From the UHGV virus genome UHGV-1375844: a DNA stretch of 64,000 nt. One strand, 5' to 3'. The notes under the pieces were generated by a model, which saw only the letters and a list, made by a program, of their open reading frames with translations, did no database searches and had not been told where the DNA came from. The translations under genes and the position numbers were made by a program. Position 1 is the stretch's first letter. Every line of letters starts with the position of its first letter. Origin of the DNA: a virus. Positions 1 through 61,967 of the stretch are shown here, piece by piece.

Positions 1-217
1 AGACTCGACAATCATAGAATGACCCTTATCTCTGCTCACTTTGGTTCCGCCTTCCCCAACCCCTAAACGGTGCCGGTTCTACGCTGGTAGTGAGCTTTTT
101 TAAACCTGACGCCAGTGACACAATCCCCCACCCATCAGGCCGAGCGTCCGGAGGTTCCGGAAGCATGGGGATATTAACACTGGAATCCACGGTTTAAAAT
201 AGGTAAGCAATTACCTA

Positions 218-472
218 TCAAGCGGTTTGATTATTTTGTCGCCCATGTAGTTGGGTGTTCAGAGCGAAAACCTCGTTAACAAGCTCCCCAAGCAACTGCT
301 CGATCAAATCTTTGTGCTCACCGGCGTGCAGACATTTCATTGCCCATTCATACAAGCTGAACGCCTGTTCGCGAGTTTTCATCATCTCACGAGCTTTGGC
401 CAGAAAATCGCTCTCAACAAGCGCTACGACGTTCGTCGGGTATACCATGATATTTTCCTTACTGTGTTTCAT
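218..472 (-). CDS. hypothetical protein (84 aa)
   Basis: ORF in six-frame track; same orientation as neighbours; no recognisable motif. Confidence 0.35.
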   Translation of the reverse strand: MKHSKENIMVYPTNVVALVESDFLAKAREMMKTREQAFSLYEWAMKCLHAGEHKDLIEQLLGELVNEVFALNTQLHGRQNNQTA

Positions 473-562
473 AAAAACGATTCTAAAGCGTCTGGAGCGG
501 GGTTCCAGAGAGTTAAAGCGGTTAGAATCGGTCTGGGATATCTACAGAACTACGTTTTGGTA

Positions 563-612
563 GACCTGCTTCTGTATATAAATAACTAATTACTTATTAA
601 TATATACGGAAG
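563..612. repeat. ~50 bp palindromic element (copy A): stems ACCTGCTTCTGTATATA / TATATACGGAAGCAGGT around an AT-rich loop containing the TAAGTA-like motif
   Basis: Inverted repeat read directly; near-identical inverted copy at 49651-49704. Confidence 0.6.
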
Positions 613-643
613 CAGGTTATCTAACGGACTCCCAGAACAAGAC

Positions 644-60600: not shown

Positions 60601-61880
60601 GCTTTGGCCTCAGCTGCCGAAGTCGAGGCCTCGGACGCTTTTGCTGTCGCGAGTGTGGCCGACTCAGCGGCTTCTGTTGCCTTTGCTTCAATACCTGCCA
60701 GCGCGTCAGTTGCGGTGGTCGCAGATGCGGCTGCGCTTGCCTCAGACTTCTTCGCTTCGCCAGCACTTGATGCAGCTGCATCTTTGCTGGCCTCTGCCGC
60801 ATCAGCATATTCGCCAGCTGTAGTGGCGCTCCCCGCCGCCGCGTCAGCGCTTAAACCGGCAGCCACTTTACTCGCGGCGGCGGCTGTTTCCGAGGCGGCA
60901 GCGTTGGTTTCAGACACTTTAGCCGCGGCAGCGCTGGCGGCCGACCCGTCGGCGCTCTGCGCCGCGTTTGTTTCAGATGTTTTGGCTGCGTTCTGAGATG
61001 CAAGTGCGGCAGCTGCACTACCCGCTGCTGCGTTTTCCGATGCGGCGGCATTGCTCTCAGAAACTTCAGCAGCCGCAGCGGAATTAGATGCTGCGGTCGC
61101 AGAATCCGCAGCAGAGACAGCGCTGCCAGCAGCGTTAGTTTCTGAGGCTTTCGCGGCATTTTTGGACGCTGCGGCACTCGAAGCAGATGCCCCTGCTTCG
61201 GCGGCTTTCTCCGTTGCGGTGGCAGCTGAAGCTACAGCAGTCTCTTTATAGCTTTCTGCATTCGTTTCGGAGGTCTTTGCACCCTTAGCGGCTTCGCTGG
61301 CAACGCTTTCGGATGCAGCAGCTGCGGCAGCACTTTTACTGGCCTCAGTCGCCTTTGTTCCGGCAGTGCTTGCGCTATTGGCAGCTGCTGCTGCGCTGGC
61401 GGCTGCCTGTTTAGCTTTGTCACCCGCGGCATCGATTGCATCCGTATTGTCTCTGTACCATTGCTGGTTGGCATTGTGCTCATTGACGATTTGGGTGAGC
61501 GATTTGACTGTCACCTCAGTGCCGTCCTCGCGTTCGAGTGTCACTTCATCAATGGCAGTTAACCAGCTTCGCATTGTCTTCGAGTCGGCTGACATTCGAG
61601 TCATCAATGCCGTGAAGCGAGCACTGAACTGTGTCAGATCGCCTTCATAGGTAGTGATGATGCGGCATGGGACATCATTCTGGGTCTCACCCGAGTACTG
61701 CTCCATAAGTGTCAGGCGGGTGTCATTTAGCACACGCTTAATTTCGTACAGCTTGTTATCGGGGCCGATGACAATCATGCCCGGCAACACGCCATTGGCA
61801 GTGACGTTCCAAAACGTGCCAGTGCCCTCAAGCGTGTCACTTCCCTGTGTAAATGTGATAGTACCTTCCCTGTACCACAT
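57681..61880 (-). CDS. long tail fibre protein with Ala-rich repeat shaft and C-terminal intramolecular chaperone (peptidase S74-like)
   Basis: 1399 aa; repeated ASETNAA units; C-terminal SDRRSKRNI...GLIAQDVQ resembles the autoproteolytic chaperone domain of T5 pb1/endosialidase-type fibres. Confidence 0.75.
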   Translation of the reverse strand: MWYREGTITFTQGSDTLEGTGTFWNVTANGVLPGMIVIGPDNKLYEIKRVLNDTRLTLMEQYSGETQNDVPCRIITTYEGDLTQFSARFTALMTRMSADSKTMRSWLTAIDEVTLEREDGTEVTVKSLTQIVNEHNANQQWYRDNTDAIDAAGDKAKQAAASAAAAANSASTAGTKATEASKSAAAAAASESVASEAAKGAKTSETNAESYKETAVASAATATEKAAEAGASASSAAASKNAAKASETNAAGSAVSAADSATAASNSAAAAEVSESNAAASENAAAGSAAAALASQNAAKTSETNAAQSADGSAASAAAAKVSETNAAASETAAAASKVAAGLSADAAAGSATTAGEYADAAEASKDAAASSAGEAKKSEASAAASATTATDALAGIEAKATEAAESATLATAKASEASTSAAEAKASQTKAKASEDKAYEYAQNAQSSIASVKWKGTSAELDLTSDTPKWVKVSRARMPQATSTVYIEVIGGAGYDTDSPGQAAMADIVLRTAGGDPKGLNAVAYLTQDSAVNSVATVNTDEENYDIYLRVGAGAQKLIVNLQFSGAAVESLEVIESVDSLPEGAVEGTVYHRVLSDINGAITGSLVGNASTATVLQTGRRIGGVLFDGSQDINLPGVNAEGNQSTSGNAGTASKLRTPRKIGGVNFDGSADINLPGVNTQGNQSTTGNAATATKLQTARKIAGVNFDGSSDINISPANINAAAAVSGWLNSGSGAAFTTAQFVTWLNEQGAFGYKCWIARCSWSYASNNYIDDTGCGRIDLSGSVIEVFSNGNSGNYTIRITTPTTTGHGGVTNAEFIYVNNGDGYGPGWRRLYNTRNKPTPADIGALASGANAVSASKLQTARSINNVAFDGTANISIPTLVSRGRVTALAGSTQGAMPGIQMYEAYNNGYPTTYGNVLHFKGGSAAGEGELLLGWSGTSGGHAPAYIRSRRDTTDANWSGWAQIYTTANKPSAAEVGALPTGGGAVTGTINQDGGAQGTYMATALCGGTTGGKKYLRKYRGGSSDTIWHETVQGGTIRWATGNTDAQEELIINTGYGVRARNEITSLSANALRAAYGNFGFFIRNDGSSTYFLLTASGDKFGGWNGLRPLTINNTSGRASMANGLDIAGGATIAGSLGLGVTNGLGGNSIVLGDNDTGFKQNGDGVLDVYANSAHVFRFVNGTLQSNKPLSVSGDITSSAWVYAGRFAINSGSGSWINMRDQNVIFGRNAVSTSSAQALLRQDHADRKFFVGGLGNSQFGFYMINNSRTANGTDAQAYLQNDGTWVCGGNGSFNDVYIRSDRRSKRNIRKIESALDKLGQIEGVLYEIQVHDRYEQSGGLIAQDVQKVQPELVTVDKNDQSGEERLRLNYNGVIGLLVEAVKELRDEIREIKENR

Positions 61881-61905
61881 ATTCGCTCCTTGAAAGGACG
61901 GGCAT

Positions 61906-61926
61906 CCTTGCCCGTCATTAAGTAAG
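61906..61926. terminator. hairpin GGACGGGCA-tcct-TGCCCGTC upstream of the long fibre gene
   Basis: 9 bp stem read directly; followed by a palindromic motif copy at ~61928-61947. Confidence 0.45.
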
Positions 61927-61967
61927 TACCTACTTATTTTTACCGATATAAAGAAATATTTCTACTA

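What the first reader, a model, noticed from the sequence alone, without database searches (positions are those of the whole stretch)
199..61947. Dispersed palindromic motif ATAAGTAAG..CTTACTTAT at about 20 intergenic sites
A ~20 bp inverted-repeat motif recurs upstream of most transcription units (approx. 199, 583, 1248, 7532, 12135, 16833, 21190, 21519, 25866, 31864, 34760, 39046, 42520, 45201, 46103, 49544, 49665, 54838, 55941, 61928). This looks like a genome-wide operator set for a phage repressor (analogous to dispersed C1 operators in P1) or a phage-specific promoter class.
Basis: seen in the sequence. Interest (0 to 1): 0.7.

Follow-up and report, generated by a model that had tools for sequence, protein, structure and literature searches.

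The report
Dispersed palindromic operator of a phage-plasmid
A 20-base palindrome repeated about 20 times between the genes of this SSU5/pHCM2-type phage-plasmid is a real, conserved protein-binding site, and it most likely lets one repressor keep all the virus's lytic genes silent while it lives as a plasmid.

Summary
The motif is real. The window is an SSU5/pHCM2-like phage-plasmid, 99% identical to Salmonella plasmid pAR-0407-3. It carries 17 strong and about 5 weak copies of ATARGTAAGTACTTACYTAT. Shuffles give none, and 16 of the 17 strong copies are intergenic in an 86%-coding sequence.

Sites are conserved at orthologous junctions in Cyrano and SSU5: 88% identity against 61-68% in the flanks. 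The half-sites do not co-vary, so an RNA hairpin is unlikely. The exact consensus occurs only in SSU5-like elements.

Distant relatives carry co-evolved variants: Acinetobacter ATCAGTCAGTACTGACTGAT and Aeromonas TCAGTAARYRYTTACTGA. In all lineages the upstream half is the better conserved, and the downstream edge drifts toward -10-like hexamers on the transcribed strand.

It is core to plasmid-state elements, expressed in Cyrano lysogens, and preceded by the motif in every lineage. Phage SSU5 is a recent deletion that lost it.

Best reading (about 0.55): a genome-wide operator set for this repressor, overlapping weak promoters and transcription-unit boundaries. An activator-dependent promoter class resembling P1 late promoters is not excluded. 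No binding or transcription-start data exist. I found no prior description.

The parts
199..218 (.). strong motif copy ATAGGTAAGCAATTACCTAT; overlaps the stop codon of the gene at 218-448
   Evidence: PWM 29.0; hit
578..597 (.). strong motif copy, nested inside a longer inverted repeat (arms 564-580 / 601-617)
   Evidence: PWM 26.7; inverted repeat
1249..1268 (.). strong motif copy 11 nt upstream of the adenine methyltransferase start (644-1237, minus strand)
   Evidence: PWM 26.8
   Evidence: PWM 17.8
7533..7552 (.). weak copy overlapping the stop codon of the gene at 7545-8420
   Evidence: PWM 12.0
12136..12155 (.). strong motif copy between the RuvC-like gene's stop and nrdA; followed by a hairpin plus T-run (12129-12106, minus strand)
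   Evidence: PWM 31.1; terminator-like site
16832..16851 (.). strong motif copy upstream of the SbcD-like gene (15632-16717, minus strand)
   Evidence: PWM 29.7
21191..21210 (.). strong motif copy
   Evidence: PWM 24.4. The orthologous Cyrano junction (genes 59->60) shows a +3.65 log2 step-up
21518..21537 (.). strong motif copy 12 nt upstream of the gene at 21230-21505
   Evidence: PWM 22.3
25864..25883 (.). strong motif copy upstream of the gp32-like SSB gene (24755-25777, minus strand)
   Evidence: PWM 23.8
26332..26351 (.). weak copy 3 nt upstream of the gene at 25897-26328
   Evidence: PWM 13.8
31868..31887 (.). weak copy at the cobT/cobS-like junction
   Evidence: PWM 13.1
33321..33340 (.). 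strong copy inside the cobT-like coding sequence; the only coding site in the window. Conserved in pAR-0407-3 and SSU5
   Evidence: PWM 20.3; pAR 62509; SSU5 43661
34731..34750 (.). degenerate copy (ATAGATAAGTCTTTACAACC) overlapping the -35 of the XRE promoter; tentative second operator
   Evidence: read from the sequence; only partly conserved
34742..34769 (+). sigma-70-like promoter of the XRE gene: TTTACA (34742-34747), 16-nt spacer, TAATAT (34764-34769)
   Evidence: conserved block across four enteric XRE subtypes; no transcription-start data
34768..34787 (.). operator at the predicted XRE transcription start: ATCAGTAAGCACTTACCAGA, the inner 14-16 bp of the dispersed motif without the outer ATA/TAT
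   Evidence: near-invariant in pAR, Enterobacter, Cyrano and Klebsiella in a region that is 78% identical overall
34815..35195 (+). XRE-family (Cro/cI-fold) regulator, 126 aa; candidate reader of the motif and putative lysogeny repressor
   Evidence: fold search; tracks the portal gene across plasmids; CYRAN_45 is expressed in lysogens
34340..34552 (-). small first gene of the divergent early operon (70 aa, function unknown)
   Evidence: annotation mapping; low-confidence alpha+beta model; deleted in SSU5 together with XRE
39047..39066 (.). strong motif copy 47 nt upstream of phoH (38226-38999, minus strand), in a divergent region
   Evidence: PWM 27.8
42522..42541 (.). strong motif copy overlapping the stop of the gene at 42534-42839; precedes the tRNA-Asn/tRNA-Ser cluster
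   Evidence: PWM 28.8; tRNAs
46102..46121 (.). strong motif copy after the primase gene and 41 nt upstream of the gene at 45266-46060
   Evidence: PWM 26.6. The orthologous Cyrano junction (genes 33->34) shows a +2.4 log2 step-up
49545..49564 (.). strong motif copy 13 nt upstream of the gene at 48806-49531, which precedes the DnaB-like helicase
   Evidence: PWM 26.3
49672..49691 (.). weak copy nested in a second copy of the long inverted repeat (arms 49650-49664 / 49691-49705)
   Evidence: PWM 13.4
54838..54857 (.). strong motif copy upstream of the holin/lysis cassette (54452-54775, minus strand)
   Evidence: PWM 28.1
55942..55961 (.). strong motif copy, near-perfect palindrome ATAGGTAAGCACTTACCTAT
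   Evidence: PWM 30.8
61918..61937 (.). strong motif copy between the tail-tip (J-like) gene and the tail-fibre gene (57681-61880, minus strand); followed by a GC hairpin, then the ribosome-binding site
   Evidence: PWM 28.2; sequence

Best explanation
The repeats are double-stranded DNA binding sites for a dimeric, element-encoded helix-turn-helix protein. The most likely reader is the XRE-family (Cro/cI-fold) regulator encoded next to the integrase (window 34815-35195). In the plasmid-prophage state this repressor would occupy about 20 sites in this window (26 in the whole 106.6-kb genome). The sites lie just after stop codons, ahead of replication, nucleotide-metabolism, lysis and virion gene blocks. 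Each site overlaps a -10-like element on the transcribed strand, so occupancy would block initiation at weak promoters that lack a -35 element. It would probably also stop read-through from upstream units. A weaker, core-only copy at XRE's own transcription start would give negative autoregulation. Loss of the repressor, by induction or by the SSU5 deletion, would free all units at once. What is shown: the sites are real, intergenic, selected, family-specific and co-evolving; XRE's fold, distribution and expression in lysogens; and the motif's presence in XRE promoters. What is inferred: that XRE is the binder, that it represses, and that the sites overlap functional promoters.
For: The sites are far above chance and almost exclusively intergenic. 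Across 41 orthologous pairs the motif is 88% identical against 61-68% for the flanks. Half-sites degenerate independently, with observed pairing equal to the shuffle expectation, as expected for two protein half-sites. The exact consensus occurs only in SSU5-like contigs among 2.9 M viral contigs. Distant relatives carry variant dyads with the same skeleton and the same placement (Acinetobacter; Aeromonas). XRE homologs track the portal gene almost one-to-one across plasmids, and XRE folds as a Cro/cI-type HTH. The XRE promoter carries the motif core at the predicted +1 in four enteric subtypes. Full-geometry copies precede XRE in Acinetobacter (three clustered copies) and in Aeromonas. In Cyrano lysogens XRE (CYRAN_45) is expressed while motif-preceded genes sit near the detection floor. 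SSU5 is 99% identical to an Enterobacter plasmid up to the junction but lacks a 6.65-kb block that includes XRE. So the lytic genes do not need XRE. Motif junctions show larger expression discontinuities, and step-downs in lysogen samples (B6: -1.13 vs +0.38, p=0.002).
Against: There are no binding, footprint or transcription-start data. XRE homologs occur only on SSU5-like backbones, so the XRE-motif link cannot be separated from the other core genes. The Klebsiella XRE has changes in the predicted recognition helix (N40I, S46K, K48R) yet the same motif, so helix-motif co-variation is weak. No conserved -35 element accompanies the sites, and generic sigma-70 promoter hits are at chance (24 vs 21.4). 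That raises the question of how the units fire once derepressed. In enteric genomes the -10-like TANNNT is equally frequent on both strands. Several sites sit so close to the next start codon (11-17 nt) that a transcript starting there would lack the ribosome-binding site. The expression test is marginal, lies near the noise floor and is not corrected for five conditions.
Confidence: 0.55

Rival explanations
1. The motif is a phage-specific, -35-independent promoter class. A dyad centred about 20 bp upstream of the start is bound by an unidentified element-encoded activator that recruits host RNA polymerase to a -10-only promoter, as at P1 late promoters with Lpa.
For: There is a directional -10-like signal at the downstream edge. 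In Acinetobacter, TANNNT starts at positions 17-19 in 14 of 26 sites on the transcribed strand against 1 of 26 on the mirror strand, and position 3 is C in 24/26 while mirrored position 18 is G in only 14/26 (p=0.004). Aeromonas shows a similar drift. No -35 element is present. P1 late promoters read AAGT(G/T)ACTT-N4-TAnnAT, and the SSU5-type centre is AAGTACTT followed 3 nt later by TATnAT. In stressed cells, sharp step-ups occur at the motif-preceded Cyrano genes 12, 34, 56 and 60.
Against: No Lpa homolog is detectable. The 20-bp dyad covers the spacer and the first bases of the -10, which is a position typical of repression. The outer ATA/TAT bases are conserved symmetrically. The same geometry precedes the XRE gene in Acinetobacter and Aeromonas, which makes no sense if the promoters fire only in lytic growth. 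The enteric XRE promoter has the core at +1, a repressing position. The motif precedes early (replication) and late (virion) genes alike, so it cannot mark a temporal class.
Confidence: 0.2
2. The sites are read by a different core protein of the element, for example one of the two ParB-like proteins acting like KorB of RK2. That protein would silence or insulate units, with XRE merely being one of its targets.
For: Two ParB-family genes are core in all three lineages. A motif copy sits in the UvsW/ParB divergent region in every lineage. From my own knowledge, ParB-family proteins bind dispersed palindromes (KorB OB sites, Noc).
Against: Nothing specific links ParB to the motif beyond one of about 26 sites. 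The degenerate copies cluster in the XRE/early region, not at par. The ParB genes are near the detection floor in Cyrano lysogens (CYRAN_119/120 about log2 2.3-3.5), while the lytic units are silent.
Confidence: 0.12
3. The motif acts at the RNA level, as a hairpin in intercistronic mRNA (REP-like stabiliser, RNase III or processing site, or terminator/attenuator).
For: A perfect copy could form an 8-9 bp hairpin. The sites lie just after stop codons, and some junctions show expression step-downs.
Against: There is no compensatory covariation: 197 of 234 pairs observed against 196.3 expected, and 135 against 137.4. The stem is AT-rich and has no consistent T-run. Many sites break three or more outer pairs on one side only. 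Specific bases, rather than pairing, are conserved. Separate GC-rich hairpins provide terminators next to several sites.
Confidence: 0.05
4. The repeats are recombination joints or mobile cassette boundaries (like PeSL elements of T4-type phages) with no regulatory role of their own.
For: One pAR-0407-3 segment missing from the window ends about 10 bp from a motif copy.
Against: That deletion is explained by a 25-bp direct repeat. The HNH insertion (window 2357-3664) and the SSU5 6.65-kb deletion are not flanked by motif copies. The sites are retained at orthologous junctions in syntenic genomes.
Confidence: 0.04

Closest known systems
Phage P1 immunity: C1 repressor with multiple dispersed operators
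   Same: It is a phage-plasmid of enterobacteria. One repressor is annotated with many operators spread over the genome, placed at promoters of lytic functions and at its own gene (P1 record annotation).
   Different: P1 operators are 17-bp asymmetric sites at ordinary -35/-10 promoters. P1 virion genes are controlled indirectly through Lpa. C1 is unrelated to the Cro/cI-fold XRE protein. Here the site is a 20-bp dyad, sits before virion genes too, and has no -35 partner.
Stoperators of cluster A mycobacteriophages (L5, Bxb1, TipsytheTRex)
   Same: More than 20 repressor sites per genome lie in promoters and in short intergenic spaces across early and late operons, with polarity relative to transcription (PMC9283540). 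The lytic phage D29 is a deletion derivative of a temperate parent (PMC5712189 abstract). I recall, but did not check, that D29 keeps the sites; if so, it parallels SSU5.
   Different: Stoperators are 13-bp asymmetric sites bound by a monomer with two DNA-binding domains, and their orientation is essential. Here the site is dyad-symmetric (implying a dimer), and polarity shows only as unequal degeneracy of the two halves. A block to elongation is only hinted at by expression step-downs.
Phage P1 late promoters (Lpa/SspA-dependent)
   Same: They combine a -10 hexamer with an inverted repeat in place of a -35. The P1 box is AAGT(G/T)ACTT, 4 nt before TAnnAT. The SSU5-type centre is AAGTACTT, 3 nt before TATnAT, so the half-sites AAGT/ACTT are the same.
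   Different: The P1 box is 9 bp, this motif is 20 bp, and the centre differs by one base. No Lpa homolog is present. The motif is not restricted to late genes, and it also precedes or overlaps the repressor gene's promoter.
Conserved inverted repeats (CIRs) bound by the phiC31 repressor (from my own knowledge, not checked here)
   Same: As I recall, a palindromic operator of about 17 bp is present at many intergenic loci across a temperate phage genome and is bound by the phage repressor.
   Different: The phage, host (Streptomyces) and repressor family are unrelated. I did not verify the details with the tools.
KorB/KorA global operators of IncP plasmid RK2 (from my own knowledge)
   Same: A palindromic operator is repeated about a dozen times around a plasmid, at variable distances from promoters, giving global co-repression.
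   Different: KorB is a ParB-family CTP-dependent clamp with a 13-bp operator. Nothing here ties the ParB-like proteins to the motif.

Membership tests
Dispersed operator set of a temperate-phage repressor (functional class; P1 C1 as type) | Many copies of one site dispersed over the genome, non-randomly placed in regulatory (intergenic) DNA | tested here: met
   17 strong sites in the window and 26 in the whole genome; 16/17 and 24/26 are intergenic
Dispersed operator set of a temperate-phage repressor (functional class; P1 C1 as type) | The repressor gene itself is controlled through the same site (autoregulation) | tested here: met
   At sequence level only. The motif core lies at the predicted +1 of the XRE promoter in four enteric subtypes. 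Copies precede XRE in Acinetobacter and Aeromonas
Dispersed operator set of a temperate-phage repressor (functional class; P1 C1 as type) | Sites overlap functional promoters of lytic genes | tested here: inconclusive
   There is a -10-like hexamer at the downstream edge, directional in Acinetobacter and Aeromonas. No -35 element is found and there are no start-site data
Dispersed operator set of a temperate-phage repressor (functional class; P1 C1 as type) | The repressor protein binds the site and represses | not testable with these tools
   Needs EMSA, ChIP or reporter assays
P1 C1/operator family in the strict (homology) sense | 17-bp asymmetric operator and a C1-homologous repressor | tested here: not met
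   The site is a 20-bp dyad. The candidate protein has a Cro/cI-type HTH fold. P1 operators are annotated as 17-bp sites
Cluster A mycobacteriophage stoperators | More than 20 sites in short intergenic spaces throughout early and late operons | tested here: met
   definition taken from PMC9283540
Cluster A mycobacteriophage stoperators | Asymmetric 13-mer bound by a monomeric two-domain repressor | tested here: not met
   The site is a 20-bp palindrome with two equivalent half-sites
Cluster A mycobacteriophage stoperators | Orientation correlated with the direction of transcription | tested here: inconclusive
   The upstream half is better conserved than the downstream half in all lineages: 23 vs 34, 20 vs 34 and 27 vs 44 mismatches. 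The site is nonetheless essentially symmetric
Cluster A mycobacteriophage stoperators | Blocks transcription elongation | tested here: inconclusive
   Cyrano lysogen data show step-downs at motif junctions (B6, p=0.002). Terminator hairpins adjoin some of the sites
P1-type late promoters (Lpa-dependent) | -10 hexamer preceded by the inverted repeat AAGTNACTT at a fixed 4-nt distance, with no -35 | tested here: inconclusive
   The half-sites and spacing are similar (AAGTACTT-N3-TATnAT), but the dyad is 8 bp inside a 20-bp palindrome
P1-type late promoters (Lpa-dependent) | An Lpa homolog is encoded by the element | tested here: not met
   tblastn of P1 Lpa against four genomes gives a best E-value of 0.29
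P1-type late promoters (Lpa-dependent) | Restricted to late (morphogenesis and lysis) genes | tested here: not met
   The motif also precedes nrdA, thyX, SSB, sbcD, helicase-region genes, phoH and tRNAs
Cro/cI-type (XRE) HTH repressors (for the protein at 34815-35195) | Five-helix HTH domain fold | tested here: met
   The AlphaFold model has pLDDT 85-90 for residues 10-80. Best PDB matches are C.AhdI, C.BclI, 434 Cro, P22 c2 and SinR, with TM 0.7-0.8. It also matches phrog_8, transcriptional regulator
REP-like or structured-RNA intercistronic elements | Base pairing maintained by compensatory changes | tested here: not met
   Observed pairing equals the shuffled expectation in two genomes

The most novel reading that the evidence does not exclude
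The sites are dual-function promoter/operator/roadblock units, a dyad-symmetric counterpart of mycobacteriophage stoperators in Gram-negative hosts. One Cro/cI-fold repressor would both occlude about 25-30 promoters that lack a -35 element and insulate every lytic unit from read-through. The promoters themselves would be evolutionarily related to P1 late promoters (shared AAGT/ACTT dyad next to a -10) and would need a still-unidentified polymerase-directing factor. The enteric, Acinetobacter and Aeromonas variants would then be a natural series of matched repressor/operator specificities (heteroimmunity groups).
Probability: 0.2. Interest if true: 0.7.

Novelty: new member of a known kind. Interest (0 to 1): 0.5.

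Why it matters
SSU5/pHCM2/pMT1-type phage-plasmids are very common. About 800 to 1,000 records in the plasmid collection carry this backbone or its portal gene. They come from Klebsiella, E. coli, Enterobacter, Salmonella (including the Typhi plasmid pHCM2), Yersinia pestis pMT1 and Acinetobacter, and some carry resistance genes. How they stay silent as plasmids and how they switch to lytic growth is essentially unstudied.

This motif, together with the XRE gene, gives a concrete and testable map of the switch: about 26 sites, one candidate repressor, one autoregulated promoter, a natural repressor-deletion mutant (SSU5) and three natural specificity variants. It would also provide a simple sequence signature for recognising the family, for defining its immunity groups, and for predicting transcription-unit boundaries in genomes where about 60% of genes have no known function.

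Tried and rejected
- **RNA hairpin or terminator role:** rejected, because there is no compensatory covariation and no consistent T-run.
- **Ordinary sigma-70 promoters:** generic promoter hits are at chance (24 vs 21.4) and only two overlap sites. No -35 appears at any fixed offset.
- **Host-factor regulon:** the exact consensus is absent from enterobacterial chromosomes, with 13 scattered hits in 596 Gb. It is confined to SSU5-like contigs in IMG/VR.
rejected once SSU5 proved to be a recent 6.65-kb deletion of a 99%-identical plasmid type.
- **Lpa homolog:** none found.
- **XRE in a non-SSU5 context:** I looked for this to separate the gene from the backbone, but all homologs lie on SSU5-like contigs.
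- **Recognition-helix co-variation:** the helix is invariant in most enteric variants and different in Acinetobacter and Aeromonas. The Klebsiella type changes three helix residues with no motif change, so I do not lean on this.
- **Is the small divergent early gene Cro-like?** Only 4 homologs were found and the model is low-confidence (pLDDT 61, one helix plus four strands). Inconclusive; no fold search was run.
- **Other annotated regulators:** the FljA-like (Flag1_repress) gene and the Rha-family gene are not good candidates. The first is, as far as I recall (not checked here), an RNA-binding flagellin repressor type. The Rha/Ant genes have no annotated counterpart in Cyrano.
- **Sequence search of XRE against the PDB:** nothing found.
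- **Literature:** string and keyword searches found no description of the motif. One 2026 preprint on an SSU5-type plasmid could not be opened.

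
Full report
**What the window is.** The 64-kb window is part of an SSU5/pHCM2-type phage-plasmid. It matches Salmonella phage SSU5 at about 83% identity. It is 99.2-99.5% identical to plasmid pAR-0407-3 of Salmonella Concord (NZ_CP044180.1, 106,569 bp). Almost all genes lie on the minus strand. They include DnaE, nrdAB, thyX, an SbcCD-like pair, a gp32-like SSB, a DnaB-like helicase, primase, ligase, cobS/cobT-like genes, a lysis cassette and tail genes.

The palindrome with up to 3 mismatches occurs 12 times against 0 in shuffles. A palindromic weight matrix finds 17 strong and 4 weak copies in the window, with essentially none in shuffles. The consensus, read on the transcribed strand, is ATARGTAAGTACTTACYTAT, flanked by A/T-rich bases.
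- 16 of the 17 strong window sites are intergenic, although 86% of the window is coding (p=2.6e-13). In the whole plasmid the figure is 24 of 26 (p=3e-18).
Three sites were missed.
- Sites hug the stop codon of the preceding gene (-8 to +40 nt) and lie 11-250 nt before the next start.
- They precede replication, nucleotide-metabolism, lysis and virion genes alike. They are absent from repA and from a roughly 13-kb stretch of accessory and plasmid-type genes beside the par operon.
- Only 15 of 37 gaps of 60 bp or more carry a strong site, so 'most transcription units' is too strong.

**It is a selected DNA site, not an RNA structure.** Cyrano (about 78% identical) and SSU5 carry 23 and 24 copies at the same junctions. 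Over 41 orthologous pairs the 20-mer is 88% identical, against 61-68% for the flanking intergenic DNA. Substitutions in one half are not compensated in the other: 197 of 234 pairs observed against 196.3 expected, and 135 against 137.4. Specific bases are conserved, not pairing. This argues against a hairpin and for two half-sites read by a protein dimer.

**The reader of the site is encoded by the element.** Among 2.9 million viral contigs the exact consensus occurs only in SSU5-like contigs. In 596 Gb of species-representative genomes there are only 13 isolated hits in unrelated taxa, and none in enterobacterial chromosomes.

**The system co-evolves.**
- An Acinetobacter baumannii relative (portal 52% identical) has about 30 copies of ATCAGTCAGTACTGACTGAT. 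The architecture is the same, with A-to-C at positions 3 and 7 and the mirrored T-to-G. Placement is also the same, including the TerL|portal junction and the position after the capsid gene.
- An Aeromonas relative has a third variant, (A/T/G)TCAGTAA(A/G)YRYTTACTGAT.

**Polarity.** In every lineage the half-site that is upstream relative to transcription is the better conserved: 23 vs 34 and 20 vs 34 mismatches in the enterics, and 27 vs 44 in Acinetobacter.
- In Acinetobacter, position 3 is C in 24 of 26 sites, but mirrored position 18 is G in only 14 of 26 (p=0.004).
- A TANNNT hexamer starts at positions 17-19 on the transcribed strand in 14 of 26 sites, against 1 of 26 on the mirror strand.
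- In the enterics the palindrome's own TAT end gives TATnAT at positions 18-23, but equally on both strands.
- No -35 element appears at any fixed offset, and generic sigma-70 hits are at chance.

So a -10-like element overlaps the downstream edge, but a complete promoter is not evident.

**The XRE candidate.**
- The 126-aa protein at 34815-35195 has a confidently modelled Cro/cI-type HTH domain. Its best structural matches are C.AhdI, C.BclI, 434 Cro, P22 c2 and SinR.
- Its homologs track the portal gene almost one-to-one across plasmid genera: Klebsiella 348/341, Escherichia 230/204, Acinetobacter 154/145, Enterobacter 92/91, Yersinia 63/62 and Salmonella 49/49. They are found only on SSU5-like contigs.
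- Its promoter region shows a sharp footprint: TTTACA-N16/17-TAATAT, followed immediately by the inner 14-16 bp of the motif. In the window this is CAGTAAGCACTTACCAG at 34770-34786, and in Klebsiella a perfect GGTAAGTACTTACC. The arrangement is conserved in four enteric XRE subtypes that are only 65-90% identical as proteins. That position, at about +1, is a repressing one.
- In Acinetobacter three degenerate copies cluster in the XRE/early divergent region. In Aeromonas a copy lies 59 nt before the XRE start.
- In published Cyrano transcriptomes the ortholog CYRAN_45 is expressed in lysogens, about 10-fold above background, while motif-preceded genes sit near the floor (PMC9928086).

**The SSU5 objection dissolves.** SSU5 has the motif but no XRE. 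However, SSU5 is 99% identical to Enterobacter plasmid pMB2617_2 up to its tRNA-Asn. It then lacks a 6.65-kb block holding phoH, grx, a toxin gene, the integrase, XRE and the small early gene. SSU5 is therefore a recent immunity-module deletion. That fits XRE being a repressor, and it shows that the lytic genes need neither XRE nor the small early gene. From my own knowledge, SSU5 was isolated as a plaque-forming phage used in biocontrol cocktails. The stoperator literature offers a partial parallel: the lytic mycobacteriophage D29 is described as a deletion derivative of a temperate parent (PMC5712189 abstract). That D29 lost its repressor but kept the sites is my recollection, not something I checked.

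**Expression discontinuities.** I used the Cyrano table, which covers 82 co-directional junctions, 19 of them with a motif.
- Motif junctions show larger absolute changes: 1.5-1.85 against 1.0-1.25 log2, with p=0.02-0.045 in three of five conditions.
- There is a net step-down in one lysogen condition (B6: -1.13 vs +0.38, p=0.002).
- The sharpest step-ups in 6-h macrophage samples fall at the motif-preceded genes 12, 34, 56 and 60.

This suggests the sites are transcription-unit boundaries. The data lie near the noise floor, and the tests are uncorrected.

**Comparison with known systems.**
- P1's annotated C1 operators are 17-bp asymmetric sites at ordinary promoters. The analogy is functional, not one of homology.
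- L5-type stoperators share the number of sites, the intergenic placement across early and late operons, and polarity. They are asymmetric 13-mers bound by a monomer (PMC9283540).
- P1 late promoters read AAGT(G/T)ACTT-N4-TAnnAT, strikingly like the AAGTACTT-N3-TATnAT core here. No Lpa homolog exists, the motif is not restricted to late genes, and it also controls the repressor gene.

**Verdict.** The motif is a real, conserved, family-specific protein-binding site. It is most likely the operator set of the XRE-family lysogeny repressor, overlapping weak -10-type promoters and unit boundaries (confidence about 0.55). An activator-dependent promoter class (0.2) or a different reader protein (0.12) remains possible. 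I found no prior description in the searchable literature. It is a new member of a known kind of system, of moderate interest, mainly because the element family is so widespread and its switch is unstudied.

Noticed in passing
window 564-617 and 49650-49705: There is a second repeat family: a long inverted repeat ACCTGCTTCyGTATA(TA)...TATAyrGAAGCAGGT with 15-17 nt arms and 20-26 nt between them. It encloses an AT-rich, motif-like core. Cyrano has three copies (near 31175, 78099 and 108357) and SSU5 has one near 78319. Its function is unknown.
   Followed up: partly
window 2357-3664 (ORF 2559-3647, plus strand): This 1.3-kb insertion is absent from the otherwise 99%-identical plasmid pAR-0407-3. 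It encodes a 362-aa protein with an HNH_2 endonuclease domain on the opposite strand, so it is probably a mobile or homing-type gene.
   Followed up: partly
window 22377-22401: The window lacks pAR-0407-3 positions 50454-51566 (the SPFH-domain and small membrane protein genes, and one motif copy). The 25 bp at the junction match both ends of the missing segment, which points to deletion between 25-bp direct repeats.
   Followed up: partly
window 34279-34311: A perfect 12-bp-arm palindrome, CTGTACGAACAG-N9-CTGTTCGTACAG, lies between the small early gene and cobT, with no T-run. It sits next to the SSU5 deletion junction. In Cyrano, expression drops about 5 log2 units across the equivalent junction (genes 46->47) although no motif copy is there.
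   Followed up: partly
window 41276-41362 and 41740-41814 (minus strand): tRNA-Ser(TGA) and tRNA-Asn(GTT) genes lie downstream of the motif copy at 42522. This region matches the tRNA clusters of P1, P7 and D6 at about 88% identity. In Cyrano lysogens the equivalent region is expressed about 15-fold above background.
   Followed up: partly
window 39242-40438 (plus strand): This 398-aa ORF on the opposite strand, next to phoH, has a weak match to a putative abortive-infection family (putAbiC, E=0.003, below the family cut-off). It may be a defence-type accessory gene.
   Followed up: no
L001 12220-12747 (pAR-0407-3, outside the window): The element encodes a full-length homolog of the phase-1 flagellin repressor FljA (Pfam Flag1_repress, E=8e-90). 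That is an unexpected host-directed accessory gene on a phage-plasmid.
   Followed up: no
L049 7609-8148 and L057 3193-3510: The Acinetobacter and Aeromonas relatives each encode an Hfq homolog just upstream of the DnaB-like helicase. The Aeromonas element also carries an HU-family gene and the resistance genes blaMOX, qnrS2 and aac(6')-Ib-cr.
   Followed up: no
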